A stretch of DNA of 64,000 nt from Narcine bancroftii (taxonomy: Eukaryota). The position numbers were made by a program, and so were the translations under genes. Location of the stretch: NCBI RefSeq assembly GCF_036971445.1, contig NC_091473.1:216256001-216320000 (forward strand), given 5' to 3'. Each line of letters opens with the position of its first letter. The first letter of the stretch is position 1. The notes beneath the pieces were generated by a model. It was not told where the DNA came from and did no database searches. It saw only the letters and a list, made by a program, of their open reading frames with translations. This document shows, piece by piece, positions 22,337-63,462 of the stretch.

Positions 22337-22661
22337 ATGGCAGCCGATGGGAGACGGAGTGGCCAACAGTGGCCAGAGGAACAGTTGAGCCAGCAGCATG
22401 GGCTGCACTCACTGCATCGTATGTTTCAGATTGTGGGAGCCCAGCTCACCCACAGGGATGTCAGGGTGCTCTCCTTCCTATTCGTGGACGTCATTGCTGA
22501 CTACGAGCGGGGCTTGATCCGCAGTGGACGCGACTTCTTCCTGGCACTGGAGCGACAGGGCCGCTGCGATGAGACCAACTTCCAGCACGTGCTGCAGCTC
22601 CTGCGCATCATCACTCGTCACGATTTGCTGCCCTACGTCACACTCAAGAGGCGCAAGACTG
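22337..22661 (+). CDS. DEDD: Death effector domain-containing protein, coding exon 1 (DED)
   Basis: ACCATGG Kozak; MAADGRRSGQQWPEE...HGLHSLHRMFQIVGAQLTHRDVRVLSFLFVDVI...GRCDETNFQHVLQLLRIITRHDLLPYVTLKRRKT; donor G|GTGAGT; 325 bp, phase 1. Confidence 0.97.
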
Positions 22662-22674
22662 GTGAGTAGGCATG

Positions 22675-32236: not shown

Positions 32237-32951
32237 GTGAGTTCTGTCTCTGCCCTCATTCTGTGGTGCCTGGAGTTAGAGTCACAACTCCTCCCCTGGG
32301 CTCACGAACCTTCCCACCGACTCGTGACCCCATCCTAGACCCATTTTTCTTCAATGCAAGTTCTGACTCACCGATCTCTCACCCCTCCATTGCCCAGGAT
32401 CACTGTCTCCTCTCTCCTCTTCTCCTGTGACGTCCCACATTGCTCACTCTGTCCTCACAAGCCCTATTCACCAGATGTGGGATCAACCCATTTGCTCTCT
32501 GCCACCTTCCCTGACCTTGCACACCTTCCAAACAATTGTCCTGTTACACTCTCTTAACCCTGCGACTGTCCCATGGCCCCAGTGCTTTCCCTCCAGAGCC
32601 CTCTCCTTGGAATCTACCTGTGCTCTTCCCCACTTTCCTGCTGGGACAGGCTGGCCTCCCCAACTAGGACCACCCGCTTTTCCCTACGATCATGCTCAGC
32701 CAATCCTCCCTCATCTTTTGGGAAAGCCCCCTCCTGCGATCACCCTATTCCTGCATATTCTGAACTTGCGGGACCTACCTCCCTTTCTTCTTGTGCACGC
32801 CCCTCCCAGATCAATGTGTAGCCCTCCCACCTCCTCTCCCCTTCCCTCCCCTCTCTATCTCTCCTCACCCCTTTCTCCCTCCGCTCCCCCGGCTACCTTT
32901 GGGTGACAATGCCACGCTCTCCTCCCAGTTGATGTTGCTCTCTCTTGCCAG

Positions 32952-33328
32952 ACATCCGTCTGCGAGTGCGAGCTGAATACTGTCAGCACCAGACAGCTTT
33001 GGAAGGGAATGTGTTCTCCAACAAGCCGGGCCGTCTGGAGAGGCAGTTTGAACGCTTTGCCCAGGCCAACACCATCCTCAAGTCCCGTGACCTGGGCTCC
33101 ATCATCTGTGACATCAAGTTCTCTGAGCTCACTTACCTGGACGCCTTCTGGAGGGACTACATCAATGGCTCGCTGCTTGAGGCCCTCAAGGGGGTCTTCA
33201 TCACCGACTCCCTCAAGCAGGCTGTGGGACACGAGGCCATCAAATTGCTGGTCAACGTTGACGAGGACGACTACACAGCTGGCCGGCAGCGGCTGCTGCA
33301 CAACCTCATGCTGCAACATGGACCCTGA
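32952..33328 (+). CDS. DEDD: DEDD terminal coding exon
   Basis: cttgccag|AC...; (D)IRLRVRAEYCQHQTALEGNVFSNK...KFSELTYLDAFWRDYINGSLLEALKGVFITDSLKQAVGHEAIKLLVNVDEDDY...HGP*. Exons sum to 325+102+132+377=936 nt, i.e. 311 aa plus stop. Confidence 0.97.
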
Positions 33329-42612: not shown

Positions 42613-42678
42613 TCACAATCTGCATTGGTGCTGAACTGTACTGGAGATTGTTTCGATCCTCTCTTGATTTCTATTCTC
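42613..42678 (-). CDS. CD2/SLAM-family receptor, putative last coding exon
   Basis: atctttattcacag|GAG AAT...; ENRNQERIETISSTVQHQCRL*; contains ITSM-like TISSTV. Confidence 0.55.
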   Translation of the reverse strand, partial: ENRNQERIETISSTVQHQCRL

Positions 42679-42809
42679 CTGTGAATAAAGATATGGACCC
42701 TGTCAACAGAATGTGAGATCCACCCACCCCCTCCCCCCAACCTTCAGCCTCACCACTTCAACAAGAGCCACTTCCAGCCCTGACCAGGAGCCCCTCAAAC
42801 CCATCTTTG

Positions 42810-43495
42810 TCTCTGTAACCCCCTCCAATCCCTTTTCCACCTCAAACCCTCTCCTATGTTTACACCCCTACTATCTCTAATTTCTTCCATTCCCTATATC
42901 CCTCCCTATCTCTGTAACCCTCTCCAGCCCGTATACCACTCTCTATCTTTGCTATCCTCTCTGGTCTCCTACACACTTCCTATTTCTGTAACCCCAGTCC
43001 ATCCTCCCCATTTAGGTAACCCCTTTCGTCTCTACCCTCCCCATCTCTGTAACCCCCTCTGAATCCTACACCCCTCCATTTCTGTTACTCCCCAATCCCG
43101 GACCCTATATCCCTCATCTCTGTAATGCCCACTCTGGTCTGTACACACCTCCCAATCTTTGTAAACCCTTCTGGCCTCTACATCCCTCCCTATCTCTGTA
43201 ACCCCATCTGACCTCTACATCCCTCCCAGTTTTGTAACTTCTCCAATTCATAAACCTCTCCCCATCTCTGTAACCAACCATTCCCCCCAATTCTGGTTTC
43301 TACACCCCTCCTCATCTCTGATATTCCCACTCTAGTCTATACATCCCTCCCTTTCTATTACCCCCTCTGGTCCCCTACAGCCCTCCCCATCTCCATAATC
43401 CCCTCTGGTCTTTACAGCCCTCCCCATCTCCATAATCCCCTCTAGTCAGTACTCCCCTCTCCATCTTGGTAACTCCCTCTGGTCCTCGCATCTCT
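42810..43495. repeat. Degenerate ~36-bp pyrimidine-rich minisatellite
   Basis: CCCTCCCCATCTCTGTAACCCCCTCTGG..CTACA units, resembling 18935-19600. Confidence 0.8.
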
Positions 43496-43538
43496 GTCTC
43501 CATTAGCCCGAAGGATCAGGGTTACACCTGACACTCAC

Positions 43539-43586
43539 AGTCATTGGATGTGCCCGCTCTGTGACCTTCGCCCCCTTGTCTCCTTT
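43539..43586 (-). CDS. CD2/SLAM-family receptor, putative 48-bp cytoplasmic exon
   Basis: ttctctttgcag|AAAGGAGAC...ATGACT|GTGAGT; reads KGDKGAKVTERAHPMT in phase 0. Confidence 0.6.
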
Positions 43587-44114
43587 CTGCAAAGAGAATT
43601 GTCCAAAGAAGATCAGGGATTATGTCTCAAGGACCTGACCCACAGTGAACAGATCTCTGTCCAGGTGTGTGAGTCACTTCTGACCCAAAACCCGGAATCC
43701 AAAACACCATCCTTGGGAATGCATCTAACTGGAGAAGGAGAGGTCATTCAGCCCCTCATTATCATTCAGCCCCTCGTTCCTGTTCCTCAATTAGCAAGAC
43801 CACAACTCGCCTTTAACGTAAAACCCACTCCCTGCACTAACCGCACAATATCCCAGAGCACAATAACCTCAGTGACGGCCTCCAGGGAGATGGAATTCCA
43901 AACATCAGCGCCTTCTGGGCAGCAAATCTCTCTCTGACTTCCATGAATGGTTGACCCCTCATTCTGTCATTGGGACCCCAGGCCACAGACCACCCACCCC
44001 CCCCCCCCCCCTTTCACTGAGATCATCTCTTTCTTCTCAACTCCAGGCAGGACAGTCCCAGTCCGCTTCACCTCTCCTCATGGGACGTAGTACACAGTGG
44101 GGACACATGGTTCT

Positions 44115-44930
44115 GGTTCAAAGTTCAGATTTATTGTCAGAGTACACATATGACATCACATTAGAATCCTGAGATTCTTTTTCCTGCGGGCCGGGCAGAA
44201 TTTCTACTCATTAGTAGTGCAAAAAACTGTTTAAAATATGTATGCAAAAGTGAGAAATGTAAATAAAGAAAAAATGTAAACAAACCAACTGTGCAAATAC
44301 AGAAAAATATAAATATTCAGAAATAAATAATGTGCAAAGTAAATGAGTCCCTGATTGAATTTGTTGTTGAGGTGTCTGATGGTGGAGGGGGAGCAGCTGT
44401 TCCTGAACCTGGTGATGTGAGTCCTGTGGCACCGATACCTCTTTCCTGATGGTAGCAGTGTATGGGCTGGATGGTGTGGATCCTTGAAGATTGTTGCTAC
44501 TCTCTGAGGGCAATGTTCCATGTACATTTTCTTGATGGTGGGGAGAGTTATGCCTGTGGTGTACTGGGCTGTGGCTGTGTCCACTACCTTTTGCTGGGCT
44601 TTCCGCTCAGAGGTATTGGTGCTCCCATACCAGGCAGTGATGCAGCAGGTCAGTGCATTTTCTGTTGAAGTTTGCAAAGGTTTTTGATGTCATACCAAAC
44701 CCCAGCAAACTCCTGAGGAAAAAGAGTGTGTTGCATTCAGGAAAGATCCTCTGGGATGTGACTCCCAATAAATTTAAATGGCTCACCCTGCACCTCTGAT
44801 TTCCCCCATTGATCACTGGATTGTACACCTCTAGGTTTTCCCTCCTAAAGTCCACAATCAGTTCCTTGGTTTTGGTGACATTGACTGTAAGGATGTTGTT
44901 AGTGCATCATACAGCCAGTTCTCCATATCC
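44115..44930 (-). mobile_element. Rex1/Babar- or L2-type LINE 3' fragment
   Basis: LTCCITAWYGSTNTSERKAQQKVV...IFKDPHHPAHTLLPSGKRYR...TRFRNS. Confidence 0.8.
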
Positions 44931-45129
44931 CTGGATCAGTCCACAGTGAGAGGTGTGTGTGGGATCTCCCCTCCCCTGAGGGTTGAATGCGGGAACTCCC
45001 CACCCCCAAGGGTGGAGTATGGCAACTCCCCTCCCCTGAGGGGGGAGTGCATGAGGCTGGAGGGGATGCAGGTCAGGGGTTTTCGTCAGGAGAGATGCAT
45101 GTAGTTGGGGAAGAAGGGGACAATCTTAC

Positions 45130-45272
45130 CTGAAAGCTTGACGCTCCTAAATCTTGTGCAGAATTTATAAATGAAAACCACGTGACGCTGACCACCAACG
45201 CCATCAGGGGGAACATTACCAGGCTCAGGACCACAAAAACCGAGGAGGGTGGAGGACGGGCAACATCAACAG
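45130..45272 (-). CDS. CD2/SLAM-family receptor, transmembrane exon
   Basis: catcag|CT...; (A)VDVARPPPSSVFVVLSLVMFPLMALVVSVTWFSFI...FQ; strong donor CAG|GTAAGA. An alternative in-frame acceptor lies at 45356. Confidence 0.7.
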
Positions 45273-46259
45273 CTGATGAGTTCCAGGACAGTGTTAACAC
45301 TGGCTGTTCACTTCTTGTGGTCAAACCCCAGGATGCAGCAACTGCAACTATCCAGTCTGGAGGGAGTGTGTGACAGGATGGTTTAGAGGGAGCTTCCCGC
45401 GGGTCTGATCCGTGCCCCAGGAGTGTGTGATTGCGACCATCCTCAGCCAACTCATTCCTTGCCTTAAATCTTCTCTCTCTGGTTCTGGACACCTTCGATG
45501 GGGTAAGGATTCCCTCTACTCACCATCATACCCATGCCCCTAATAATGTTGTGTATCTCAATAACATCCTCCTTGGCTCCAAAGAAAACAAAGGTAGCCC
45601 ATCCTGTCTCTCCTCAGATTAGAAACGCTCCAAGGCAGAATACATCCTGGTGACCCCCTCTGCTTCCATTTCAGTGCAGTCTCATCCCCTTCCTCTCGTC
45701 TGGAGCCCATGAGTGTGTACAGGTATAACTCAACCAGGGCTTTTTGAAGCTAAATACTCTCTGTTGTTAAGTGAGAGGAGTTTAGAGTCAGCAATAAACA
45801 CACTGGAGACTGCGGATGTTGGAATTTGATGCCAAATACAATCAGCTGGAGGAACTCAGCAGGTCAAGTAGCATCTGTGGGAGAAACAGAATGGTTGACG
45901 TTTTGGACTGGAACCCTTTAGAGCTTTATTCCTTGGATGAGGGGTGATCTCATGGAGGTGTATAAAATTAGGAGAGGAACAGATCAGGTGAGAGCAGAGC
46001 CATTTGGCCAGAGCAGGTGTATCAGTGACCAGAGGACATGTGTTTAAGGTGAGGTGGGGAGAGATTTAACAGGAATCTGAGGGGTAACTTTTATTTTACA
46101 CAGAGAGTGGTGGGTGCATGGAGGAGGTGGTTGAGGCAGGGGTGCTATTGTAATGTGTATATGGATAGGATGGGCTTAGAGTGATATGGGACAAACATTG
46201 TTGGCAATTTGGGCTGAGGAGCCTGTATCCACGCTAAGAGACTCAAAGACGGGTGATGT

Positions 46260-48320
46260 TGAGGTTAGTTTAAACTAGACAGGGTAGGACAGGGGCTCCG
46301 TGTTGGACTGGTGGACCAGAGATAGGGGAACCATGACACAGAGGCAGAGAATTGGCAGATGCCAGACAAAGGGAAAGGGGGGAGAGGTAAGAAATGTCAA
46401 GGGGTCAGATGGGGAAGGATGCCACACAGGGAATGGAGGGGGATGACAGCCAGAGGCTGCCAGTGCTGGGATCTGAGAAGGATGAGAATGGTAAGGAAAA
46501 AGATGACCAGATGGAACTGAAGCAGGTGGGAGAGAGTGAGGAGATGGGGTGAAGGGCAAGGCACCGCCCTGGCACCTCATGGGGACATTCCAGGCACCTC
46601 CTTGTCACGATTTGTGGTCCGCTCCAGCACCTAAAATATTAGCACTGCACCCCTGGTGAAGGGGATGGAACCAAAGAGGAAAGTGGATGAAAAGAAGTGG
46701 GGGCTGGGTGAGAAAGGGGACAATAATGTGGGAGGAAAACAGGAAGAGGATAAGGGGTACAGAAGAAGAGAGAGAGAGAGGACTCGGCCTGAAATGAGGC
46801 CATTCAATGTTCATCCCACTGGGCTGTAGACTGTCCAGGGGAAATATGTTGTTGTCCCTCTAGTTGACATTGGCCCTCACTCTGGCAGTGGAGAAGGCCC
46901 AGGACAGATAGATTGGGGTGGGAATGGAAAGTGGAGTTGAAATAGCAGCAAACAAGACCTTGGGGTGGACATGTGGACAGAGAGTGGATGCCCTGTGAAA
47001 CTGTCCCCAAGTCTGTGTTTGATTTCATTGATGGGGAGGAGGCTACACCGGGAAGACCCAGTTCAGTAGATGAGGTTAGAGGAGATACATGTGAATCTCC
47101 TCCTCACGTGGAAGGGCTGTTTATGTCTCTGGGTAGTGGTGAGGGAGGCAGTGCAGGAACAAGCATGGCACCTCCTGAAGATGCAGGGGAAAGAACCAGG
47201 GGTCATGGGGAGGTGGGTGGGGATGGATGAGCTGACAAGACAGTCACAGAGAGAGCAATCCAGCAGAAGGCAGAAAGGGGTGGGGAGGGGGTAGATGTGT
47301 CTGGAAGGATGAGTCTCGGGTTCAGCAGGCGAAAATGATGGAGGATGATGTGCTGGATGAAGAGGCTAGTGGGGTGAAAGATGAGAACAAGAGGAGCCCT
47401 GTTCTGTTTGTAGGGAGGGGATGGGAGCAGATCTCCATGAGACAGAGGAAATGCGAGAGATGGTCTGTTGACCGCAGGAAGTCCTGTTGGTTAAAAAAGG
47501 AGGACATTTCAGATGTCCTGGAATGGAAGGCCTCATCTTGAGAGCAGATGCGGCAGAGAAACTGGAAGAAGGGGTTGGCATCCTTCTTGAAGACTGGGTG
47601 AGAGGAGGTGTAGTCTGGGCGGCCATAGAGTCAGTGGGTTTGCAGTAAATGTCAGTCAATAAGCTTGTCTCCTGCAAAGGAGAAAAAGGGGAGAGAAAGG
47701 GCAGAAATGGTACGAATGGGGGGGGAGGTTCACAGCAAAGTTGATGAAATTGATGAGTTTGCCTTGGGTGTAGCAATCAGCCTCAACGCAGTCATCGATG
47801 TGACAGAGAAAGAGTCGAGAGTGGTGCTGGGGGTTGTTCAGATCAAAGATTGTCCATGTAAGACAACAAAAAGGGAGGCATCGCTGGAACCAAGTGAGTG
47901 TTGCATCATAAATTTGAAATGAATGAGAGGCATCAAAAGAAGGGGTGAGAATGAGTTTTATCGGAGGGAAATTGGTCAGGGCGTGGCACCAGAAAGCAGC
48001 GGAGGGCTTCTGTTCTTTGGGGGAAGGGTTGTTGGTGGAGACGAACTGGACATCTATGGTGAAGATGGGATGGGTGGGGATCAGAGAATCTGGAGTTGTC
48101 CAAGTGGTGAAGGATGTGGAAAGCATCTTGGATGGAAGAAGGAAGGGACTGGACAAGGAGGAGTGAGGATGGAGTCAAGATGTGTGGTGGAGCCAGAGCA
48201 GGCGGAAACAATGGGGCTGTCGTGGAAGTGCTGGTTGTCGATCTTGGGTAAGAGATAGAAGCAGGAAGTGCAGGGCTGGGATGCCCATCATGTTGGAGGC
48301 TGAGGAGAGGCGATCTCCTG
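46260..48320 (-). mobile_element. Penelope-like element remnant (RT + GIY-YIG)
   Basis: IFTIDVQ, FLCHIDDCV, LINFINFA, TDIYCKPTDS and MSSFFNQ remnants. Confidence 0.75.
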
Positions 48321-49116
48321 ACTCAGCATGAGTCAGCCTGAGAAGGACCAGCATAGAGATAAAATGGGGAAACCTTGGTCGATGAAGGATATTGATGATT
48401 TGATCAAGGAAAAGAAGGAAATCTGTGTCAGGTGCTTGGTATTGGCATCAGCTGAGTCCTTTGGAGGATACAAATGCAAATAAAGAAATTAGGAGTCAAA
48501 ATGGGGCCATGAAATGACATGGGCAGTAGGATTAAAGTAAATCCTAAAACCTTTTATAAGTACATCAAAAGCAAGAAGGTGGCTAAGAAAAGAGTTAAGT
48601 CTTGTCAGGGACCAGAGGGATGATCTTGTGTGGAACCAAAGGTTCATTCATCAGCCAAGAGAAACATGGAGATGGGAGAGTTAGGGGAGGGGAATGGTGT
48701 AATCCTGGACCACACTGGGATAAGGAAGGAGGAAAAACTGGAAGCTTTGGAGGTGGATAAAGGTGGATAAATTCCTTAGGCCTTGACAGGGTCTATCTCA
48801 GGATGCTGAGGGAAGGAAGGGAGGGAGGATACTGCTGGGGCTTTGGTGAAAGATGTAGTGTCAATAGAGTGCAGAAGAGATTCCTGAGGCCTTCCTTGGA
48901 ATGGAGGGCTGTGGTAATATGGAGGGATTGAATGGACTGGGTTTATTCTCACTCGAACAAAGGAAGGCTGATTTTATGGAGGTTTATAAAATTCTGAGGG
49001 TCACAAATAGGACAACTTGTTAGAGTTTTTCTCCCTGGGTAAGGGAATCTAGACCCCATGGCACAGTGCTATCACAGTGCCAGTGAACCAGGTACGAATC
49101 CGTCACTGTCTGCAAG

Positions 49117-49870
49117 GGAAAACACAATGCTGGAGAAACTCAGCAGGTCAGACAGTGTACTTAATATAGCAAAGATACAGAGCCGAGGTTTCAGGCTTGA
49201 GGCCTTCAGCAAAATATGATCAAAATGTGGGCAGGCGCCCAAACGATGGTGGAGTGGGAGTGCAGTCCCATGGGCAGGAGGTTATAGGTGGAAAGGGGAG
49301 GGAGGGGCCATCAACAAACAAGGGGAGGGAGGGGCCATCAACAAACAAGGGGAGAGGGGGGATGGTTCTGTGAATGGAGAGAGAAGGGTTTGACAGTACA
49401 TGAGGCCATGGACAGACATGTCAGCATGGGAGTGAGGCGCAGAATTGAAATTGAAACCAAGGCCACCCGTAAATTGGAGGAGAAACACCTAATGATCTGA
49501 GTGGGCCCTCTCCAACTGGATGGTATTAACGTCGACTTCTCCAGTTTCTGCTAGACCACTCCCCGTCCTCCCTCTCTTCCCCATCCCTGGGTTCTTTCTT
49601 CCAGTTCTCCACCCCCCTTCCCTCAAGATTCACAGAGACGTCACCCCTCCTGCCAGTTGGACTGAGCTCCTTCCTCTGCCCTTCCCCCCACCATTTTGTT
49701 CAGGCACCTGCCTACATTTTGCTCATGACTTGATGAAGGGCTCAAGCCCGAAACATCGGTTATGTATCTTTATCTTTGCAACATAAAGGACACTGTTTGA
49801 CCTGCTGAGTTTCTCCGACATTGTGTTTTTACTTCAATCACTGTGTCTGCAGACTTTGGTGTTTTACTGC
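49117..49870. mobile_element. Penelope-like ends in inverted arrangement
   Basis: Minus-strand pLTR/3' piece at 49117-49452 joined to a plus-strand piece at 49453-49870; both carry the hammerhead-like motif. Confidence 0.75.
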
Positions 49871-50344
49871 TGCTTGTAAGGAGTTTGTACATTTACTCCA
49901 TGTTCGCGTGGGTTTCCTCCAGGTGCTCCAGTTTCCTTCCAAGTTCCAAAGGCATAGGTGGTTCGTAGGCTAATTGGCCACATGGGTGTATTTGGGCAGC
50001 ATGGGCTCATGGGCTGGGAAGGGCCTGTTCCCCTGGAGTGCCTCTAAATTAAATTAATAGAGGGCACAGACTTACAGTAAGAGGGGAGGCATTTAAAGAC
50101 GATTAAAAGGGTAGATTTTTTAGTCAGAGGGAGTGGGGATCTGGAATGAGGTGCCAGAGAAGGTGCTGGAGACAGACACAATGACAGTGTTGACCTTGGC
50201 AAGGTCAAATTTGGAGCATTGTCTGCAGTTTTAGTCACATAACGACAGGAAAGATATCAATAATATTGAAAGAGTGCAGAGAAGATTTACAAGGATGTTG
50301 CCGGAACTTAGTTGAGATTCAGGGAAAGGTTAAATAGGTTAGGA

Positions 50345-53189
50345 TGTAGCACACTGCTAAAGTTATAGCTCTGGGTTATAGCTTGAAGAAAGAAGCTCAC
50401 ACCAAGAGAGTGCAGTTGACACTGAGTTTATTCGACTATCTGCTCCGCCTTTTATAGGCTGACTGCTGCATCACCATGGGCGAGGCTTGTGATCTGCCGG
50501 CCATGGATTGGTCGCCTTGTGATTTGCTGCTGGCAATTGGCTGGTTTAGTCTCTGATATTGTGGCTTATGGTAACGGACCGGTCATCTCTCGTCATCTGT
50601 TCGATCACTGCGTTCAATGGCCATTTCCTTTGTCGGCCTGCAGAATAGGCCTCGGGTAACCTCCACCCCCAGAACTGCTGATAGGACTGATGACATGGTA
50701 TGGCCCTTTGTAAGGCTGTCGGAGGGGTGACTGATGTGCCCTGCATTGTACAAATACGTGTCCAAAGTCTATAAAGTTTTTGGGTATGAAGGTTCTGGCG
50801 TGGGCTTGGGCCCTGGGCTGTGCCTAGGCACTCATGCAGATAAGACAAGGTAGCCGCTGGGAGATCCCCCATATCCTTGGATCTGGCTATGAATTTGTCT
50901 GGGATAACTAACGGCATGCTGTAGACCAACTTGGCAGAGGATGCCTCAAGATCCTCTTTCAGGGTAGTATGAATGCCGAGTAGGAACAAGGGAAGTTCAT
51001 CGGCCCAGTTTGGTCCAGTGAGCCGGGCCATGAGGGCTGTCTTCACATGCCTATGGAATCTCTCCACCAACCTGTTGGCCTGCAGGTGATATGCTGTGGT
51101 GTGGTGGAGTTGGGTCCCCAAGGTGTTTGCCAAAGCAGCCCACACATGCTTCCATAGGTGTTTCACCACCTCAGGCCATCTGGTCAACAGATAACGTGCA
51201 TCCCTGGATATTGGTAGGGGGCCCACAATGTCTATATGCATGTGGCTAAACCATCAGTGTGCCTGCTCGATGGACTTGGGGTGGGGGGGGGGGGGGTGGT
51301 GGTGCTTAATGTGTGTTTGAAACTTTTATGCCTGGCACTGCATGCATGTCTTGGCCCTCCAAGTGACCTCTTTCTGGAGACCATGTCACCATTTTTACTG
51401 TTAACCCGATGGCAGGATGAGTCAGATTATGGACAGAGTCAAACACCTGTCTTTTCCATGCAGCCAGAATGATGTGATGAGGCCTACCGGTCGAGGTATC
51501 TCACAGCAGTGTCTGGGTACCTGGGACGATTTGGACTCCCTCTAGTCAGTCGGAGGCCAGTGGGATGTTGGGGTCTGCTTGCTATGCTTCAGCCAAGGTC
51601 ACGTAGTCAATGCCTGGGGTGGGGGCATGCACCACTAGTATAGCCGGTCTTGATAGAACATGTTGGACCTGCTGGTGATATGCTGAATATCCATTGAGAA
51701 TTCAGAGATAAAGGACAGGTGCCACTGTTGCCTGGCTGACCACAGGTCTGAAATCTTGCTGAAAATAGAAATGAGTGGCTTGTGGCCTGTGAAAATTTTG
51801 AACTTTCTGCCCTCCAGGAAGTAGCGGAAATGCAGAGTTGCCAGGTGTAATGCTAACAGCTCTCAATCAAAGGTACTGTACTTGAGCTCTGGTGGCCTGT
51901 GATGTTTCCTGAAAAAGGCCAGCGGCTCCCACTATCCATCAACCAGTTGCTCAAGTATACCCCTGACCGCTGTGCTGGAGGTGGTGAGGGCGGTCAGGGC
52001 ACCTGTCCTCGGGTGCACAATGTGAGGGGCATTGGCTAGGACCTCTTTAGCAGCCTGGAAAGCCTCAACCGCCTCTTTTGTCCATTCAATGTTCTTCTTG
52101 GGTCCTGTTATAAGGGGAAATACCAGGCTCATGATGTGGGTCTCTGCAGGTATAAAGCAGTGATCGAAATTGACCATACCTGTGAGCTCTTGCAGATGGT
52201 CTAGGGAAGGATTGAATGGCGTCCACTTTTGCAGGAAAAGTCCTGGCCCTCTGTTGGTCAATGCGATGCCCCAGGAAATCAATTGTCTCTCGGTCAAACG
52301 GGCACTTGGCTGGATTGATGTTCCAGCATATCACAGGCATCTCTCTTTGCTGCCTATAGCATATCCACCCGGGCAGCTACCTTTCTGGGGTCATCGAAAC
52401 CCACTACTGTGGTGAGCAGCCAGACGACTTCAGGCAGCCGCTCCAGAAAGATCTGCTGAAACAGCGGGAAAGAGGTGTGGCCATCGGCAAGAGTGAGCAT
52501 GTCGCTCATGAGGGCGGAAGGAGCCCTGTCTCCCACACCGTCCGTATGCAAGTCGGCCATGCGTTCATGCTTCGAGTTAGTAGCTCCTTGATGGCCAGAT
52601 ACTTGCCTTGCTCCGGGGGCTGCTGAAGGAAGTCAATGATCTGGACCACAGTGTCCTAGTTGAGGGTGCTTACTACGTGGTAGTAGCATGTGTCGTCGGC
52701 AGTGATCTGGCAAATGGTGAACTGTGCCTCGACTTACTGGAACCTCACCCGTGGTTGCACCATCCAGAAGTCTGGCAGCTTCAATGATACCACATTGATT
52801 GCAGGCTGATCTCCCATCGTTGAGTCCAAAGCGCCATTTGGACCAGATGGGGTCACCAATGTAGCACACTGCTGCAGTTGTAGCTCAGAGTTATGGCTCG
52901 AAGAAAGAGGTTTACACTGAGAGAGTGCAGTCGATGCTGAGTTTATTTGGCTATCTGCTCTGTCTTTTATAGGCTGACTGCCATATCACCACAGGCGCGA
53001 TTGGTTGCCTTGTGATCTGCTGGCCCGGATTGGACCCCCTGCAATCCACTGCTGGCAATTTGGCTCATTTAGTCTCTGCTGTTACGGTCTATGGTAATGG
53101 GCTGCTCAGCTCACATGTCGTCTGTTCGATTGCCCCATTCAACAGCCATTTCATGTGCTGGACTGTGGAGTAGGCCATGGGCTGCTACA
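50345..53189 (-). mobile_element. Internally deleted Gypsy LTR retrotransposon
   Basis: LTRs at 52860-53189 (TGTAGC...GCTACA) and about 50345-50660. PBS TGGTGACCCC next to 52859; PPT GGGGGTGGAGG near 50660-50670. Integrase (HIDIVGPLP...TAYH..AN.LVERFHR), RT/RNase H and gag remnants. 4-bp TSD AGGA at 50341-50344 and 53190-53193, inside a CR1. Confidence 0.92.
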
Positions 53190-53851
53190 AGGACTTTATT
53201 CCTGGATGCTATGGAGAATGAGGGGAGATTGGATAGAGGCATATAAAATGATGAGGGGTATAGATAGAGTGAATGCAAGCAGGCTTTTTCCACTGAGGTT
53301 AGGTGAGGCAAGAACTAGAGGGCATGGGTTAAGGGTGAAAGGTGGAAATTTTAAAGGGAACATTCGGGGGAACTTCACACAGAGAGTGGTGAGTGTGGAA
53401 CGAGCTGCCAGCTGAAGTGGTGAATGCAGGCTTAATAGTGACATTTAAGAATTATTTGGATAGGTTATGGATGGGAGGGGTGTGGAGGGTTATGATCTGG
53501 GTGCAGGTCATTGGAACTAATTAGAATAGTTTGGCACAGACTAGATGGGCTGAAAGGCCTGTTTCTGCACTTTAGTGTTCTGTGGTTTAAAAGGAGATTG
53601 GACAAGTTCAGATAGGAAAGGAGTAGGGGAAACATGGGCCCAATGCAAGCAAATGTGATTGCTGTTGATAGGTCAGCATGTAGGAGAGGGGCTGAAGGGC
53701 CTGTTTCTGAGCTGTTTGATTCCAGTTCTTTTTGAGCTGCAATCTGCTAGTCAGTTGTGTGTGCTGTTTTACTGTTCTAACCTCTGTCTGCCTCTCACTT
53801 GCCTGCTGCTGCCCTGCTCCCAGTTTTTTCCCTGCTCTTGCCCACACCTAC

Positions 53852-54130
53852 CATCTGTATGGCGCTCATACACGTGCTTCCTGGAGATGTTGGCAATCTT
53901 CCAGCTGATGGGATTCTGGACCGTGCAGGTGTAGTTGATCCTGTTGGACAATTCAACCAACTGCTGGAGATGGGCATCCTGGTCCGAAATCCACTCAAGC
54001 TGGGTGTGGTTCCCAGGGGTCCAGTGGAAGCTCTGGTTGTTTCCGGATGCAGCAAAACACCTAAGGGTCAGGTTGCACGATTGTCCGGAGCTAATGTTGG
54101 CCACCTCGACCGTGACTTTGGACACTGGTT
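53852..54130 (-). CDS. CD2/SLAM-family receptor, IgC2-domain exon
   Basis: ccttgcag|AA...; (E)PVSKVTVEV...SCNLTLRC...FHW...NYTCTVQNPISW is the SLAM-type C2 signature. Donor G|GTAGGT; 279 bp, phase 1-1; several NxS/T sequons. Confidence 0.9.
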
Positions 54131-54487
54131 CTGCAAGGACAGTGAAGAAAGGGATCAATGGGAATCAAGGTGAATGCCATACCTGCCTGTTCCTGTATCT
54201 CCCTTCGCGACCCCCTGTTTGACCACCCATTTTCCCATCTCCCATGCTCTGAAACTATTGGGAAAGCCACAATAATCACCAGAGAATGTCCAGCCAGCAG
54301 TGCAGCAGGTAATACCACTGCCTCACAGCTCCAGACTCAGGTTCGCCCCTGACCTTGGGTGTGTGTGTGTGGAGATTACAGGTTCTCCCTGGGACTATGT
54401 GGGTTCCCCCCGTGCCCTTGCTCCTCCGGTTTCCTTCCACGTCCCAAAGCATACAAATTGGAAGCTTTAAATCTCCCCATGTTGGAA

Positions 54488-54491
<4 letters not shown>

Positions 54492-54572
<81 letters not shown>
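54492..54572. repeat. (TG)n microsatellite
   Basis: Perfect TG run. Confidence 0.98.
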
Positions 54573-54577
<5 letters not shown>

Positions 54578-54809
54578 GGTGGTGGCTGGTCTCAAGAAGG
54601 GAGACAGGTTGACATCCAGAATACTTTGGAGGCCTGAGGGGGGATATGTTGAGAGGATTCTCCCTCTGGGGATGGGGGAACAATATCTGGGGGTGGGGGT
54701 AGGAGTGAGGGATCAGTTTGGAGAGGTGGTGAAGGCAGGTACAGTGGTTCTGCATGGCAGGAGTGGGAATTAGTAGGGATCTAAAGGTTATGGTGGGGGA
54801 TTGTGGGAG

Positions 54810-55222
54810 ATTGTATTCGCTCGAGTTCAGAAGAATGAGAGGAGATCTTATAGAAACATAGGATTATGAAGGGTATGGATAGGATAGATGTAGGAAGGTT
54901 TTTTGAGCTGGCCGGGGAAACTAAAACGAGAGGACACAGTCTCAAGATTTGTGGGAGTAGATTTAGGACAGAGATGAGGAAAAATAGTTTTTCCCAGAGA
55001 GTAGATTCTCTAAGCAGGGAAGTGGTTGAGGCTGCTTCATTAAACATATTTAAAATTTGGTTAGATAAATTTTTACATGATAGAGGAATTAGGGGATATG
55101 GGGAGAAGGCAGGTAGGTGGAGTTAGGTCATAAATTAGATCAGCCATGATCTTATTGAATGGCAGAGCAGGCTCGATGGGCCATTTTTGGCCTACTCCTG
55201 TTCCTACTTCCTATGTTCCTAT
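54810..55222 (+). mobile_element. CR1 3' end
   Basis: MKGMDRIDVGRFF...TRGHSLKI and a TTCCTA(T/C)-type terminal repeat. Confidence 0.85.
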
Positions 55223-57219
55223 TGGGAGGTGCAGGAGCTCCTCTCAATCAGGGCTGACAAGGAGATTGTAAAATATATAACCGACACTGTGAAAGACGGC
55301 TGTTATATGAGAGGGTGGCCTGTAGGCTCAGGGACCTAGATTTGACACTAGCTCTTTCAGATTGTGACCAAGCTGGTCTGTGATTTGTCCTCAGTTTGAA
55401 CAGTCTGAAGCCCACCATCCCACTCCCTCACCAACAGCATGCCACCAGGCCCCTACAATAGGTAGCAGTGATTAGTAAGAGATTACTTAAGTTGGTATGT
55501 GAGTGGAAAGAAAATATTTGAAATCCACTTCTTTCGATCAATACTTGCAGTAGATTTTCTCATGCTCTTTTACAAATTGTGTGTGTATATCGTATTAAAT
55601 TGTGCGCATTTTTTTTACCATGCTCTTCTATACATTGCTTTATTCCCACTATGATTTCACTGCCCTGCTTGTATGTAACACGTCACTCAGAATGTTACCA
55701 CTGGAGGTTGGAAGCCCCCACCACCTTGCTCCGCGGAGGTAATGTGAAAGGCCACACTGAACCAGTTTTTCTTGGTTCATGTGAACAACCCAACCGGGGT
55801 TTAAAAATGGGTCATTCGCATGCCAATGTAACAGGTTTCCAATGTGAAAAGGCCTACTGTACCACTGGGAAGACGGAGAAAGATAAATGATTTAAATGAT
55901 TGAAGTGGGATTTGAATCAAAAGGAGGTTTTGAGTGTGTGGTGGAAGTACTCGGGCAGACTTCTTGTTCAGATGTCTGCTGCTTGTGAGTAAAGCTCTGC
56001 TGTTTCCAACTATGCAGTTCCATCAATTAGCTGGCCATTTGCTGGGGTGGATTTACTTCACCATGAACCACCATCTTTTGTTTAATTTGGTCACTAAAAG
56101 TCAAACATTGGTGACTCCATCACCAGTTCATCATTCATTAGCTCATCAGTCGGTGGTGGATGACTTTTTGACTGCGTCTCAAAGGCCTGGGAGCCTCACC
56201 CTCACCTTTGAGGAATCCAAGAGGCTTTGGCAGATTGCCAGGGAGCCAGTTCATGAAGCACCTGAGGATTTCTGTTCTTCACTCTACTATCCCGTCTGGA
56301 TAACAGACTCACATCTCGGGGAATGTGGAATGGTGTCCTCTGAGGAGGATTGAGCGAGTATGGCTTCAGTCAACATGAGACTTGCCCTGTCCTACTGTGG
56401 ATTGTTGTTTTGTACAATTGTCTGATCTGTTTGTTTTTTGCAAATATGCCAGACCCGTCTTCCAAAAGACCTGGGCCCTACAGGAGATACGCTGGCTTAG
56501 CGACTTCAATGACCCCTGAGGCCAGGAAATCGTTTGTATCACTGGAAGACCAGAATGCGGTTATGATTCTGATCCCCAACTATGATGGTTGGAAAATGCA
56601 CAAAGGCAATGGTGGAGTGCAATGGATGTGAAAATGGAGGGTAAATCCATGACTTGTCTATGAAACAGGAAGGCAGTGGGCTTAGTCACGTGTTGAATCG
56701 ATTCTTGGACTCACCAGTCATCTTACACTTCAGCGGCTTGGTTGAGACCATGTTTCACAGAGATATGGAGCAGGTAAGGGTGCATCCCCTAGGCGCATGC
56801 TTGAAGGGGCTGCTCCTTGGGTTCTGGCGGCATTTCAGCCCCATGGTCCTGATCTATGGGCACCCAGTATGGAGGGTCAGTCAAGGGTTGTCCTTGTCAA
56901 TCTGGCCTGGGCCTGGCCTAGATAGGCTAAAGCAGCAGGTAGTCGAGGGTGCAGTTCGGGCTGATTGTCTTCCTCTCTCGGAGAACACCTGTGTGCCCAT
57001 GTATCCCTGGAGAAGGAGCACTCAGAGCTCACAGGAAGCTTGAGGGTCTCTGGGAATGGGTTGTCACCCAAGGGTTTAACGGTATCAATGGAGATAATCA
57101 ATCTCTAACCTATGTTTTGTGTGAGTAGACCGACTTGTAGATGAATATAGTTCTTGTCAAATTTGAACAGTTAATAATAAAGGGGTGGAATTGATTTACT
57201 GTCAAAAAGGCAAAAACGG

Positions 57220-57500
57220 GGTGGGAGCTCCAGATTATGGGAGGGGCAGTGAAGGAGGGGCAGTTGGTGATGGTGCACCAAGCTGGAAGAGAGTGAGGGA
57301 GCACCACACACCACACAGTGGGAGTGGTGGTGAGGGATTTCTACACTGTGGGAGGGGCAGTGAGGGAGCTCCATACTTCGAGAGAAGTTGCAGGAGCTCC
57401 ACGCTGTGGGAGAGGTGATGATGGAACTCTGTGTTGAGGGAGAGGTGAAGAGGGAGCTCTGCACTGTCAGAGGGGATGTCCACTGTGGGAAATGAAGAAG
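57220..57500. repeat. ~30-bp G-rich minisatellite next to the IgV exon donor
   Basis: GGGAGCTCCACACTGTGGGAGGGGCAGTGA-type units. Confidence 0.7.
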
Positions 57501-57533
57501 TGAGGAGTGGCTGGGGTTGCCTCATGCAGTGAC

Positions 57534-57869
57534 CATATGCCTGGAGGGAGACCTGATCTTTCCAATCCTCGGATGTAGTGACCACCACGATATAGGTGCC
57601 CACATCTTCCTGCTTCACGCTGTCTATCCAGAGGGTGAAGTTGTCCAATAGCCTGACTTGGCCACTAAACTGGTTGGTAAGAAAGTACTTTCCTCTCTTC
57701 TCATCTGCTTCATAGTGAACAATGCTGGTTAACTGTTTCTGGCTCTTAAATTTCCAGCTAATCTCTGCTTCCTGGGGAAGAGGATCCAAGTGTACCGGGA
57801 TCCAGGCCTGATGGTGCAAGCTGGCATTAACTGGATAATCTGGAGTCTTCATGTTGAAGGCAAAAGTGG
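57534..57869 (-). CDS. CD2/SLAM-family receptor, IgV-domain exon
   Basis: ctccccag|CC...; EISWKF...FSGQVRLLDNFTLWIDSVKQEDVGTYIVVV...VSLQAY. V-set motifs (W, L-x-I, D-x-G-x-Y) with no cysteines, as is typical of the CD2/SLAM D1 domain. 336 bp, phase 1-1, weak donor GTCACT. Confidence 0.85.
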
Positions 57870-58589
57870 CTGGGGAGGGAGATAGCATAGGGCTTCCCAT
57901 TCCTCTGCCCAACCTCTTTCACTCACCCCACCCTCTCTCTCACACCCCCACCTTCCCTCTCCAACTCACCCTCCCTCTAGCACCCCCTTACACTCTCACA
58001 CCCACTCTTTCACCCCCATTCTGCCCCTCACCCCTCTCCCTTTATCTCATCCTCACTCTCCCTTTCTAACCTCCACTCTTCCTCTATCACCTGACCCTCT
58101 CAGCTCACTTCCACTCCCTCACACACTCCCACCCTCCACCCACCCTACACCTCTCACCAACAACTCTCACCCACTCTTTCTCTCATCATCCACATTCTTT
58201 CTCACACCCTCACTCCCTCTTGCCCCTACTCTCCCACTCTTACCCCCATCCTCCATTGCACACCCATTCCCTTTCTCACATCCAATCCCTTTCCCACCTC
58301 CACCCTCCCTCTCACCCCCACCCCACCCTCCCTCTCCCACATCCACTCTCCTTTTCTCACCCCCCACTCCTCATCCCTCTCACTCACAACCAACCCTCCC
58401 ACCCTCCCTCTCTCCCCCCACTCCTCCCTCTCTCACCTCCCTCCTTATCTCTCACCTCCCACCCCCACTCCATCTCTCACTGCCACTTCTTCACCCCTAC
58501 TTTCCCTCTCTCACCCCTCTCCCTTATCACACCATTCCCTCTCTTACCCCCACTCCTGCTCGTGGCAGTCCTCTATGCACCTGATGCCA

Positions 58590-61500
58590 TTCTAACATCA
58601 GCTGTCCAGGATCTTGTTACCTTCTGTTAAAGGTATTAATCTATTTGGAGTCAGGGGAGTTTTTAGGGACAGCCCCATTTTGATACCTAAATATTCGTTA
58701 ATTTTATTCCAAATGGCAATGACTTGTTTTAAAATAGGGCTGCCTACTTTTCTAGATAATAATTTAGCATCCCATTTATAAATAACGTCCTCTGCCACCT
58801 TCTCCCCCACCATGTGCAAGCCAACTTGTGCCCAGGATAGTACATCCCCACCCTTGAAGAGTGAGGCAGTATATCATGACTGGGCTGCCCAATAATATTT
58901 CTTAAAGTCTGGCAATTGTAAACTACCCAGATTGTAATTCCAAGTCAATTTTTCCAGAGAGACTCTGGGCACCTTTCATTCTATAGGAATGTTCTTACCC
59001 ATGAGATCAGATTTTGGAAGAATTTCCATGGTAATGCTACAAGCAATGTCTGAAAGAGGTATTGAAGCCTTGGCAACACATTCATTTTAATACAGTTGAC
59101 CTCGCTCAACAAGGTTATTGGCAGGGGCATCCACCTATTCAAGTCCTCCTCAATCCTTTCCAGCAAGGGGGTATAATTCAATCTGTATAAATAATTCATG
59201 TTGTTATATATTCTTACTCCTAAATATTTGATTCTGTTTTGTGGCCGCTTTGAATAACTGTTTTGCTGACATTGACTGTAGTCCCCCTTGATGAGTGGTA
59301 AAATTTTACTCTTGTTCCAATTAACCTGTACCCAGAGATCTCCCCATAGTCCTCCAGTGTAGAGTGCAGCCTAGAAAATGAATTTACCGGGTCTGTAAGA
59401 TATATCAGTACATCTTCTGCAAATAAATTGATGTCATGTTCTTCCTGGCCTGTTCTAAAACCTTTAATATCTGGGTCCCATCTAACGGCTTTGGAAAATG
59501 TCTCCTTGGCCAGTATGAACAGGGCTGGAGATAGCAGACATCCTTGTCTACTTGATTTTGTCAGTAGGAATGCCGGAGAGATTTATCCATTGGTCACAAC
59601 TTTGCCCTTGGATGCATGGTACAGAACCCTTATCTAATTTGTAAAAGTTGGCCCTAACCCAAACCTTTCCAGCACTTTGAATAGAAAATTCCACTCCAGT
59701 CTATCAAATGCCTTTTCTGCATCCAAGGCCACAGCCAGATCCCTCTCGTTTCTGGTTTGTGTCAGATGCATTATATTCAACAGTCTGCCAATATTGTTCA
59801 TTACCTGTCTCTCTTTTGCACAAAGCCTGCCTGGTCTTTGTTCATGAATTTTGGCAAATAATTAGACAAGTATTTTATAATCTGTATTTAACAGTGAAAT
59901 AGGTCTAGAGGAGGGCAGCAATAGTGGATCTTTGTCTTTTTTGAATATCATCATAATGATTGCTGATGTAAAAGATTCTGGGAGGGTATGGGTCTCAATT
60001 GCCTGGTCCACCACCTCCATATAGAGGGGTATCAGTAAATCTTTAAATTCCTTATAGAACTCAGGTGGAAACCCATCCTCCTCTGGAGATTTGTTAGTCT
60101 GCAGGAGTTCAATGCTTTCCCTATCTCTACCTCTGTGAAAGGAAGATCTAGGTTATCATGTTCTTCTGGATCCAAATTTGGAAGCTCTAATTTGGTCAGG
60201 AACCTGTTAATTTTATCAGATCCCCCTGTTAGTTCTGATTTGTATAAACCCTCATAAAATTCCCTGAAGGTGTTAATCTCCTTTGGTTTGTATGTTGTCC
60301 TGCCCTTCCCAATTGATTATGTCCTCAACTGCTAAGAGAGGATTTTATGGGCTTTCTCCCCCAATTTTTGTTTTGGCCTCATTTTAGCCTTTTCCACGTT
60401 ATAAGTTTGAAGCGTATTATACTTCATTTTCTTGTTTGCTAGAGCCCTATCGTGGTCCTCTGAGCCTGATTTATGATACTCCTTTTCTAAGTGAGCAATT
60501 TCTTGCTCTAATTCATCCACCTCCCTCATATATTCTTTCTTCACTGCCTTAGTGTAACCAGTTATTAGGGCTCTCAAATATGCTTTGAGGGTATCTCATA
60601 GAAATAATTTATTTGGAGCAGAGGAAAAGTTGTCCTCGGAAAATATGTCTCTGAATTCTTATAAAACTACAAAACTCCAGCTTCTTTAACAGCAACACAT
60701 TAAGACGCCACCTGTATGCTGTATCCTGCTTCTCTGGCATTTCTATTGTTAGTGTCAGGGGTTAATGCTCTGAGAGAAGTCTCACTATGTACTCAGCTTC
60801 CATGATCCTACTCTCTATATGGGCTGAAGCTAGGAAAAGGTCAATTCTAGAATAGGAGTCATGTTGTTTTGAGTAGCAGGAATAATCCATCTCCCTTGGA
60901 TGCTTCCGCCTCCACACGTCTATCAAATTCAGCTCCTTCATTCAGTCAATGGTAGACTTTGCTGCTTTGGTTTTAGTTATTTTCTTTGTTGACTTATCTA
61001 AGACGGGATCTAGACAAAATTAAAATCTCCCCCAATGCAGAAGTTCTCTTTTCCCTCTGCCAATCTCAGGAAAGAGCTCTGTATGAACTTTTTGTCATCA
61101 AAATTGGGGGCATATACATTTACTAAGGTCCAGGATTCTGAATATATCTGTCAGTGCACCATTACAAATCTTCCTGTTTTATCTGTGGTCATGTTCTGCA
61201 CTCTCACCAGAGCACACTTTCCTATCAAAATTGCCACCCCCACCCTCCTGCAAGTGAACTGAATGAGGAGGATATTATCTGACCCACCCAGCCCTTTTTA
61301 ATTTTGGGTGCTCCCACTCTGTCAACTGTGTTTCCTGAAGAAAGACCAGATCTAATCCCATTTTTTAAATGTGTGCCAAAACTCGTTTCCTCTTTATTTT
61401 CCAGTTCAAACTATTAACGTTAAAACTATCGTATTTCATGTTCTTGATCATTGATCCAATTCACGCTCTCTTCATGTCTCCGCCATCCCTTGTCTGTTCT

Positions 61501-63462
61501 CGCCCAACCTTATTCCTCCAGCCATGAATTTCAGTCCACCGGGCCTGCAGCAAACCCTGAAATGGTCAAACAAAGACCGGGGCCATATCCCCCAGAAGGG
61601 CAAGTAAAAAAAAAAGAAAGGTTCGACAAAAGGAAAGGAAGAAAAAGAAAAAAAAGACAACATAAAATACTACACCAAACTTAAACCCCTTATCCATATA
61701 CTATACTTTCCTTCCCCTTCCTCCCCCAAACCTTTGGTAACTTTACCCTCAATACTATCACCATCCCCCTCGTTTCCAAAGGTTGTGCATTTTGCACCCA
61801 TCTACCTCTCACCACTCTCTACCCCACTCCTCCCAGACCACTTCCTTTTCATACCTTCTTCCCATAATTTATTTACAAATCTAACTGTTAATTCTACTAT
61901 TACTTTATAGTTATTTTCAACAATATATTCTTATAAACAACTAAAATACTGTCATTAACCATTAGGCACTACCCCCATGTATATTATTTCTAGCAGACTG
62001 GCAGCTGCTTCACAAATTCCCAGGTCTCTCTGGCCTCCGACAAAAACTTTCTTTCACCTCCTGGCATTATAAGTTTTAGGGTTGCTGGGTACTAATCTCT
62101 TTACATCAGCAATCATTATGAGGATGGGGGTAAGAGTGGGAAAGTAGGGACAAATTCGTTCCCTTTCAGTTTTGCCATCTTCTTTATTGGATCAAATTCT
62201 TTCCTTTGCTTAAGGAGGGCCACGCTTATATCTGGATAAAGTAGTATCTTTTCTCCCCTCCAGTTCCATCAGCACCCCCTCGCTTTCATCCTGAATGCCG
62301 CTGCCCTTAAAATCTTCTCACGATCCAGGTGACGCAGAAGCTTCACCAGGACCAAGCATGGTCTCTGTCTGGAGCCCAGGCACGGGAAGGGAGTCCGATG
62401 GGCTCTCTCTATCTCTACCATATCCCCTAGTTGTTCCTTTTTCAGGACCTCTAGGAGCCAATGCTGGAAAAAAGCCATGGGATCTTTCCCCTCCCAAATC
62501 TCCAACAGCCCCACAATTTTAATAGTATTCCTCCAACTGTGGTTTTCTAGAATATCTATCCTCTGCCAGAGATGTCCCCTCTCTATTTCACATGCGGCAA
62601 ATTCGATCTCCAGATTATTGATTCTGTCCTCGATATTGCCAGTTCTGTCGTCCAATTCAGTTATCCTTCCTGATAAACCAGTTAGGGCAATCTCCCATTT
62701 GTCCATTTTATTGTATAGCTCCCCAGTCTTTTCTTTTAAATCCTTGGCCAGTGTTCCCTCCATGCTCAGCATGGCCTGCAATATGCCCTGCAGTGAGGAG
62801 TCCATGCCCCCTCCCCTTCTTATTGACACCAGGCTGCTACTGTAGTGAGTCCTAGGTCTACCGCCAATGTCTCCCTCCAAGCTGTCGTCTGACTCTTCCT
62901 CACTGGGATTCACACTGGAGCCATTCCCTGATGCAGGGTAAAAGTCTCCAGCATCCCCCATATGAGTCTGTCAGGCACGCTTCGCCCACTGCTTTCGGGG
63001 GGGGAGGAACATGATGTGCACTGCACTTCGGAGTTCAGTTTCCCCCCCATGGGCTCCTCATCTCTCCACGCTCAGTCGGAGTCCACACCGGTGGGTTTCC
63101 CTGGTTCAGGCTCACCTGACGCCAACTTCTTACCCAAGAAGTTGTGCCTTGCACAATCTTGGCAGTTTGGGGCCTCCTTTGTTGGGCCATCTCGGGCATC
63201 GGCTTGGAGCTGGAAGCGCCACTTGACTTCCTCAAGGCAGGCTCGTTCTGGCAGTGCCCGTTCCTCCCAGCTTGCTGGCTGTCTTTCCTTGATTGGAGCT
63301 TTTCTTCCCCATTAGAGTAAGGTAGGGGCCTTTACTGAGACTTATTGGTTGTTTTCTTAGAATTGCTTAGACTTTTAAACTGTTTTTTCCTCTTTCGTCT
63401 GGGAGCTCGGGCGGGGGGGGCGGGGTCAACGTCCTACTGCTGGCTCCTCATCATGTGACCTC
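58590..63462 (-). mobile_element. 3'-truncated, degenerate L1 (5' UTR, ORF1, ORF2)
   Basis: ORF1 at 62269-62961 (coiled coil, then LENHSWRNTIKIVGL...EIERAHR). ORF2 starts near 61439 (SFNVN...LVFLQETQ; GDFN; LDAEKAFD) with stops and frameshifts. Confidence 0.9.

What the first reader, a model, noticed from the sequence alone, without database searches (positions are those of the whole stretch)
42613..57869. SLAM/CD2-family receptor whose only ITSM-like motif has lost its tyrosine
Seen: the exons splice into an open IgV-IgC2-TM-tail protein whose tail ends ...ETISSTVQHQCRL*. Known: SLAM receptors signal through the ITSM T-I/V-Y-x-x-V/I, which binds SAP/EAT-2. TISSTV differs from TIYSTV by one base (TCC vs TAC, position 42644), and no other tyrosine remains in the tail. 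A 1-nt shift after VQH would also extend the tail as PMQIVNSSYLNAA. Inference: this is either a signalling-dead decoy/ligand-only paralogue or a gene in early decay, in a lineage where SLAM genes are poorly described.
Basis: partly seen in the sequence, partly recalled or inferred. Interest (0 to 1): 0.7.

Follow-up and report, generated by a model that had tools for sequence, protein, structure and literature searches.

The report
Broken SLAM immune gene in ray
In this electric ray, an immune-receptor gene that other sharks and rays keep intact has lost both signalling tyrosines, carries two frameshifts that cancel each other and shows no recognisable first exon, so it is likely a dead gene rather than a working decoy receptor.

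Summary
The Tyr-to-Ser change at 42644 is real: 6 of 6 runs covering it agree, and Mobula has TAC. It is one of several lesions. The 100 nt between them match batoid orthologues only in another frame. The C2 domain lost its fourth cysteine (18 of 18 other rows keep four or more). The IgV donor is weak. No signal exon was found; a retroelement 0.7 kb upstream of the IgV exon is cut off at its 3' end, suggesting a deletion took exon 1. Three public gene models of the locus start in that element and lack IgV and transmembrane exons. No close second copy was found. Verdict: likely unitary SLAM-family pseudogene (0.8); decoy 0.1. The proposed tail extension is not supported. No RNA reads were available, and the deletion junction was not checked in reads. 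The scan has noted other shark and ray SLAM genes before, not this locus.

The parts
57534..57869 (-). IgV exon, open, no cysteine (CD2/SLAM type)
   Evidence: Pfam V-set 3.8e-08 and Receptor_2B4 1e-05; 54-56% identity to four batoid orthologues
57528..57533 (-). weak IgV splice donor GTCACT
   Evidence: score -1.7 versus 1.9-7.4 for the other donors of the locus; 3 of 4 neighbouring IgV exons have GTGAGT, the fourth GTGGGT; a skate read-through model (P0024) suggests the +3 C may be ancestral
53852..54130 (-). IgC2 exon, open; fourth cysteine replaced by Tyr (TAT at 53870-53868)
   Evidence: Pfam Ig_2; 3 Cys versus 4-5 in 18 of 18 other rows
45130..45272 (-). TM exon (in-frame alternative acceptors at 45341 and 45356) with a net +2 frameshift near 45182-45185
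   Evidence: organism C contig lacks one base at 45182 and one at 45185; the 3' part in the other frame is the best TM-profile hit in 264 kb
43539..43586 (-). first tail exon, 48 nt instead of an inferred 50; lost 2 nt of the Tyr codon of the N-D-Y motif at its 3' end
   Evidence: orthologue alignment and Hemitrygon read-through model; public model P0030 reads it in the ancestral frame and stops at the junction
42613..42678 (-). last coding exon; ITSM Tyr codon is TCC (42645-42643); stop at the ancestral position
58553..62970 (-). decayed LINE-type retroelement (called L1 from recall of its layout), same strand as the gene, cut off at its 3' end at about 58553
   Evidence: weak RVT_1 hits, below Pfam's cut-off; 150 copies scored in the genome; 7 of 7 sister copies fetched continue past this point
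58999..59029 (-). retroelement-derived coding start used by three public gene models, spliced straight to C2
   Evidence: exon chain translates identically to P0030; same start in P0163 and P0164
53110..53208 (-). cryptic last exon of public isoform X2
   Evidence: 32 of 32 residues match
45864..45874 (-). cryptic last exon of public isoform X4 (3 residues, then stop)

Best explanation
This is likely a unitary pseudogene: the ray's single copy of an IgV-IgC2-TM SLAM-family receptor that other sharks and rays keep with two tail tyrosines. Shown: ITSM Tyr is Ser; a +2 and a -2 indel 100 coding nt apart cancel, so the exons still join into an open frame in which the juxtamembrane Y-K-F-C/basic stretch and the first tail exon are out of frame and the N-D-Y tyrosine is gone; C2 has lost a disulfide cysteine. 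Inferred: a deletion ending at about 58553 removed the 3' end of an upstream retroelement together with the promoter and signal-peptide exon; what transcription remains starts in the retroelement, skips IgV and TM, and gives short products with no signal peptide. The open frame would then be a chance result of neutral indels. The order of events is not known.
For: A relative has the TM exon 2 nt shorter, that is in frame. N-D/N-Y in 12 of 12 and ITSM in 11 of 12 orthologue tails. Cys4 lost only here, 1 of 19 rows. No signal exon: best orthologue-profile score with a donor in 57870-73000 is 14 versus self-scores 55-65, and no hydrophobic ATG-to-donor exon in 57870-66800, whereas the same scan gives candidates for 4 of 4 neighbouring IgV exons. 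Retroelement 3' end missing where 7 of 7 sister copies go on. 3 of 3 public models retrieved lack signal, IgV and TM. C2 evolves faster here than in stingrays: p<0.05 in 6 of 8 relative-rate tests. One sample has a further 1-nt deletion at 45207 that gives an early stop. No close second copy in three genome searches.
Against: IgV and C2 exons (615 nt) have no stop or frameshift, though with two indels this is not unlikely under neutrality (p about 0.09 to 0.25). IgV shows no rate increase (0 of 8 tests). The full chain is still an open frame with a hydrophobic TM and good acceptors. Isoform X1 of the public models was not retrieved and could hold more exons. That these models rest on RNA is my recalled knowledge of the NCBI pipeline, not shown. 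The junction at 58553 was not checked in reads, so a local misassembly could hide exon 1. The 45207 deletion rests on one low-depth contig (5.5), seen in two runs of one sample that may be one data set. The +3 C of the weak donor may be ancestral. Absence of a 14-codon exon is hard to prove.
Confidence: 0.8

Rival explanations
1. Living ligand-only or decoy receptor: the gene still makes an IgV-IgC2-TM protein with a tyrosine-free tail, using an exon 1 that I missed or borrowing the signal exon of the next gene upstream (about 15 kb from the IgV exon; same phase), and the cancelling frameshifts were kept because they preserve the membrane anchor while removing signalling.
For: Open frame and hydrophobic TM persist; ectodomain exons are unbroken; IgV is not accelerated; ITSM-less SLAMs exist in mammals (SLAMF8, SLAMF9; PMC12084948 section 7); Heptranchias paralogues with a signal peptide show Ser in place of the ITSM Tyr (P0021, P0168, P0169). 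Organism B shares the TM frameshift.
Against: No own signal exon found; 3 of 3 public models skip IgV and TM; Cys4 loss leaves a free cysteine; basic stop-transfer residues are lost; either frameshift alone ends in the last exon, so nothing obvious selects for the second; a possible early-stop allele exists.
Confidence: 0.1
2. Staged loss: the tail and C2 were released from selection first (a tyrosine-free or secreted, TM-skipping form worked for a time), and the gene died later when exon 1 was deleted. Today it is a pseudogene as in the best explanation; only the history differs.
For: Both frameshifts and both tyrosine losses fall in the TM/tail; window-specific changes are denser in C2 (21-24 of 90) than in IgV (15-16 of 106-111); TM skipping gives a clean stop (P0030).
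Against: The IgV versus C2 difference is not significant (p 0.05-0.14 in 6 of 6 comparisons); clustering of the two indels has p about 0.09.
Confidence: 0.25
3. Assembly artefact: the lesions are sequencing or assembly errors in an intact gene.
Against: Contigs agree with the window at 42644 (6 of 6 covering runs), across 43539-43586 (6 of 6, no indel listed there) and at 45182-45185 (5 of 5 covering runs of organisms A and B).
Confidence: 0.03

Closest known systems
Batoid and shark orthologues: XP_062921204.1 (Mobula hypostoma), XP_072135134.1 (Mobula birostris), XP_078277101.1 (Rhinoraja longicauda), XP_032898509.1 (Amblyraja radiata, 'SLAM family member 6-like'), XP_072354378.1 (Scyliorhinus torazame)
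   Same: Exon layout and domains; 48-56% domain identity to the four batoids compared; window sits inside the batoid clade with 95/98 support; tail homologous.
   Different: They keep a signal peptide, four C2 cysteines, an in-frame TM, the N-D/N-Y tyrosine and the ITSM.
Public models XP_069797281-3 ('uncharacterized protein', labelled Narcine bancroftii, isoforms X2-X4)
   Same: Their exon chains match the window letter for letter.
   Different: They name no family and cover only the retroelement start, C2 and short ends; IgV, TM and the lesions are not part of them.
Mammalian SLAM family (SLAMF6, CD48; ITSM-less SLAMF8 and SLAMF9)
   Same: SLAMF6 is the top PDB match of the orthologue profile (1.3e-16, tied with FCRL5; CD276 close); disulfide-free IgV plus C2.
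   Different: SLAMF8/9 are expressed proteins with short tails (PMC12084948); this gene reached a Tyr-free tail by frameshifts and shows no signal exon. One-to-one orthology with any mammalian member was not tested.
Pairs of compensatory frameshifting mutations (Biba et al. 2022, PMC8935012)
   Same: Two short indels restoring the frame near the gene end; 100 nt apart, like the 99 nt of RAB36; such pairs are commoner in dispensable genes.
   Different: Their high-confidence cases are described as expressed or multi-species genes; here the pair spans two exons of a gene that is likely dead.

Membership tests
SLAM/CD2 family (by descent) | N-terminal IgV domain without the canonical disulfide | tested here: met
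   No Cys in the IgV exon; V-set and Receptor_2B4 hits; feature from PMC12084948 passage
SLAM/CD2 family (by descent) | Orthology to annotated SLAM-like genes and place in a SLAM cluster | tested here: met
   Tree 95/98; three more IgV-C2 genes within 200 kb, two with ITSM exons
Functional SLAM receptor | C2 domain with two disulfides | tested here: not met
   3 Cys; fourth is Tyr
Functional SLAM receptor | Signal peptide, type I membrane protein | tested here: not met
   No signal exon found; a borrowed or hidden exon is not excluded
Functional SLAM receptor | ITSM T-x-Y-x-x-V/I in the tail | tested here: not met
   T-I-S-S-T-V; no Tyr after the TM start
Functional SLAM receptor | Homophilic or CD48/2B4-type binding; SAP/EAT-2 recruitment | not testable with these tools
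   Needs expression and binding assays
Adaptor-coupled activating SLAM-like receptor | Basic residue inside the TM segment | tested here: not met
   No Arg or Lys within the hydrophobic stretch
Unitary pseudogene | Disabling lesions against intact orthologues | tested here: met
Unitary pseudogene | No working close duplicate in the genome | tested here: met
   Single close match for IgV, C2 and a skate orthologue; these searches score only best candidates
Unitary pseudogene | Neutral evolution (dN/dS near 1) and no protein product | tested here: inconclusive
   Protein-level rate raised in C2, not IgV; no orthologous ectodomain DNA and no RNA reads on hand
Compensatory frameshift pair | Two indels of 1-2 nt that sum to a multiple of three against the ancestral frame | tested here: met
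   +2 against organism C; -2 inferred from protein alignment and a read-through model

The most novel reading that the evidence does not exclude
An electric ray turned an ancient signalling SLAM receptor into a tyrosine-free, ligand-only receptor by a pair of compensating frameshifts in two different exons, which rewrote 33 juxtamembrane residues and deleted one tyrosine, plus a point change of the ITSM tyrosine; it is still displayed using the signal exon of the neighbouring gene.
Probability: 0.08. Interest if true: 0.65.

Novelty: new member of a known kind. Interest (0 to 1): 0.25.

Why it matters
If right, it records a lineage-specific loss of a SLAM receptor kept from sevengill and horn sharks to skates and stingrays, which is useful for charting the cartilaginous-fish SLAM repertoire. 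It is also a clear case where an open reading frame hides a dead gene because two frameshifts cancel, a trap for annotation without orthologues. It does not reveal a new mechanism unless RNA shows the full chain with a signal peptide.

Tried and rejected
No RNA holder listed: four runs guessed to be RNA ran contiguously through introns, so they give no evidence on expression either way. Other tail exons with an intact ITSM: four T-x-Y-x-x-V/I/L matches in any frame on the - strand 53850-34000, none resembling orthologue tails; judged chance. Extension after VQH: rejected. Two-frame tail as a conserved second signalling tail: the frame exists as Mobula isoform X1, but its single Tyr (position 42) does not match the window's (13, 25), and here it has a stop at codon 2. 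My first idea that the -2 lay at the start of the last exon was dropped once the Hemitrygon read-through model put the Tyr codon at the end of the previous exon. Signal-exon best hit at window-extended position 85237 has no donor and lies inside another gene. An in-frame alternative IgV donor at 57312 (score 2.1) would add 74 residues; untested. Isoform X1 was not found in searches covering 74-237 aa by C2 and 196-2000 aa by IgV. Organism C did not cover the two tail exons. dN/dS not computed: no orthologous ectodomain DNA. No structure or complex job was sent. Four paper searches listed nothing on this locus; subscription papers and supplements were not seen.
Full report
Observation. Pfam gives V-set and Receptor_2B4 for the first exon and Ig_2 for the second. 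Base 42644 is the middle of a TCC codon. Eight runs were laid on 42440-45400; the six that cover 42644 (5 samples, 2 studies, all contigs; one may be the source of the assembly) show no difference there and no indel after VQH. The change is real.

Orthologues. Searches gave relatives from stingrays, skates and sharks. A tree of 19 ectodomains (window, 15 public proteins, 3 neighbours) puts the window inside the batoid orthologue clade, support 95/98, on a long branch of 0.52. Of 12 orthologue tails scored, 12 carry an N-D/N-Y tyrosine and 11 an ITSM at the place of T-I-S-S-T-V; the twelfth model ends by reading through an intron. Left out of that count were models with other ends (P0001, P0003, P0008, P0010, P0011, P0012, P0015 and further Heptranchias isoforms and paralogues); several of these have no ITSM, so ITSM-less forms occur among shark models.

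A TM profile, run blind over 264 kb in six frames, ranks this other-frame piece first (E 0.021). A contig of organism C covers 45086-45378 with 37 substitutions and lacks one base at 45182 and one at 45185, so its TM exon is in frame; organism B matches the window with no gap. The first tail exon is 48 nt; orthologues imply 50 nt ending on the Tyr codon (inferred from the alignment and the Hemitrygon read-through). So +2 and -2 cancel. The open frame is a mosaic in which the Y-K-F-C/basic juxtamembrane stretch and a second tail tyrosine are lost.

Ectodomain and 5' end. C2 has three cysteines; 18 of 18 other rows have four or more. Relative-rate tests show C2 faster than in stingrays in 6 of 8 comparisons and IgV in 0 of 8; the IgV-C2 contrast itself is not significant. 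The IgV donor GTCACT scores -1.7 on a generic matrix (recalled frequencies) against 1.9-7.4 for the other donors, though a skate read-through (P0024) suggests only the +5 base changed. Orthologues have a 14-residue signal exon; nothing like it lies within 42 kb upstream, and a generic scan finds no candidate in 57870-66800 while finding candidates for 4 of 4 neighbours. A decayed LINE-type element (weak RVT_1 hits; the name L1 is recalled from its layout) stops abruptly at about 58553, where 7 of 7 sister copies continue, the longest pairs staying alike for about 1.1 kb more. Such elements normally keep their 3' end on insertion (established knowledge), so I infer a later deletion that also took the promoter and exon 1. 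This junction was not checked in reads.

Transcripts. No RNA run was available. Three public models labelled Narcine bancroftii match the window exactly; all start in the retroelement at 59029, splice to C2, and end in cryptic exons or in the first tail exon read in the ancestral frame, which stops at the junction. None has signal peptide, IgV or TM. That multi-isoform models reflect RNA evidence is recalled, not shown, and isoform X1 was not retrieved. One sample carries a further 1-nt deletion at 45207 that stops the frame within the TM; it rests on one contig of depth 5.5 seen in two runs that may be one data set, and is absent from X1, X6 and X9.

Mechanism. Most likely (0.8) a unitary pseudogene: no close second copy, while two neighbours keep ITSM exons. 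Either frameshift alone would end in the last exon, so I see no selection for the second; a cancelling pair is then plausible by chance. Against this: the 615 nt of Ig exons are unbroken (p about 0.09-0.25 under uniform decay) and IgV is not accelerated, which leaves room for a staged loss (0.25, compatible with a dead gene today) or a living decoy with a borrowed signal exon (0.1).

The extension. A skate orthologue ends C-R-S-stop where the window ends C-R-L-stop; orthologue ends score at background against the extension, and its tyrosines are not conserved. Not supported.

Comparison with what is known. Family features are from PMC12084948 (passages; section 7): IgV without disulfide is met; two C2 disulfides, signal peptide and ITSM are not met. 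It is a SLAM-family gene by descent, not a working member. The orthologue profile's top PDB match is SLAMF6, tied with FCRL5. Compensatory frameshift pairs are described in PMC8935012 (abstract; first third of Results): near gene ends and in more dispensable genes. PMC10529500 (one passage) reports Slamf6 in a nurse-shark T-cell subset; PMC10751288 (one legend passage) lists slamf among genes in the white-shark MHC. Four searches (listings only) showed nothing on this locus. Earlier scan notes describe other shark and ray SLAM genes, none at this place.

Verdict. Real, explained, modest: a likely dead SLAM-family gene with a neat cancelling frameshift pair. Interest 0.25.

Noticed in passing
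window 22280-22666 and 32933-33325 (+): Exons with a death effector domain and a TRADD-like N-terminal domain, likely DEDD; human DEDD lies near the 1q23 SLAM cluster (recalled), which suggests ancient synteny.
   Followed up: partly
L003:9042 (signal exon), 3166-2813 (IgV), about 1415-1340 (last exon), - strand: Small gene with a signal exon, one IgV (weak V-set hit) and a hydrophobic C-terminal stretch that looks like a GPI signal: a possible single-domain CD48-like protein.
   Followed up: partly
G000:C11, about 216337500-216348500 (-), 216419500-216432100 (+), 216451500-216460700 (-): Three more IgV-C2 genes; the last two have exons with intact ITSMs, the first has a TM exon but no tail tyrosine motif that I could place.
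   Followed up: partly
G000:C11, about 216355400-216355650 (+): Degenerate C2 exon with a stop and missing cysteines, a second SLAM-like remnant in the cluster.
   Followed up: no
P0021, P0168, P0169 (Heptranchias perlo): SLAM-like paralogues with a signal peptide whose ITSM has Ser in place of Tyr while the N-N-Y tyrosine is kept: a possibly independent ITSM loss in a shark.
   Followed up: no
P0001 versus P0002 (Mobula hypostoma): Isoform X1 skips the first tail exon and reads the last exon in another frame, giving an ITSM-less tail.
   Followed up: yes
window 45207: 1-nt deletion in a C run in sample S2 only; would stop the frame inside the TM.
   Followed up: partly
window 5109-7036: Long open pieces of a LINE-type reverse transcriptase on both strands, facing each other (identity recalled).
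   Followed up: no
G000:C11:183136609-183136884 (-): Weak C2-like match to the skate orthologue 33 Mb from the cluster (E 0.003).
   Followed up: no
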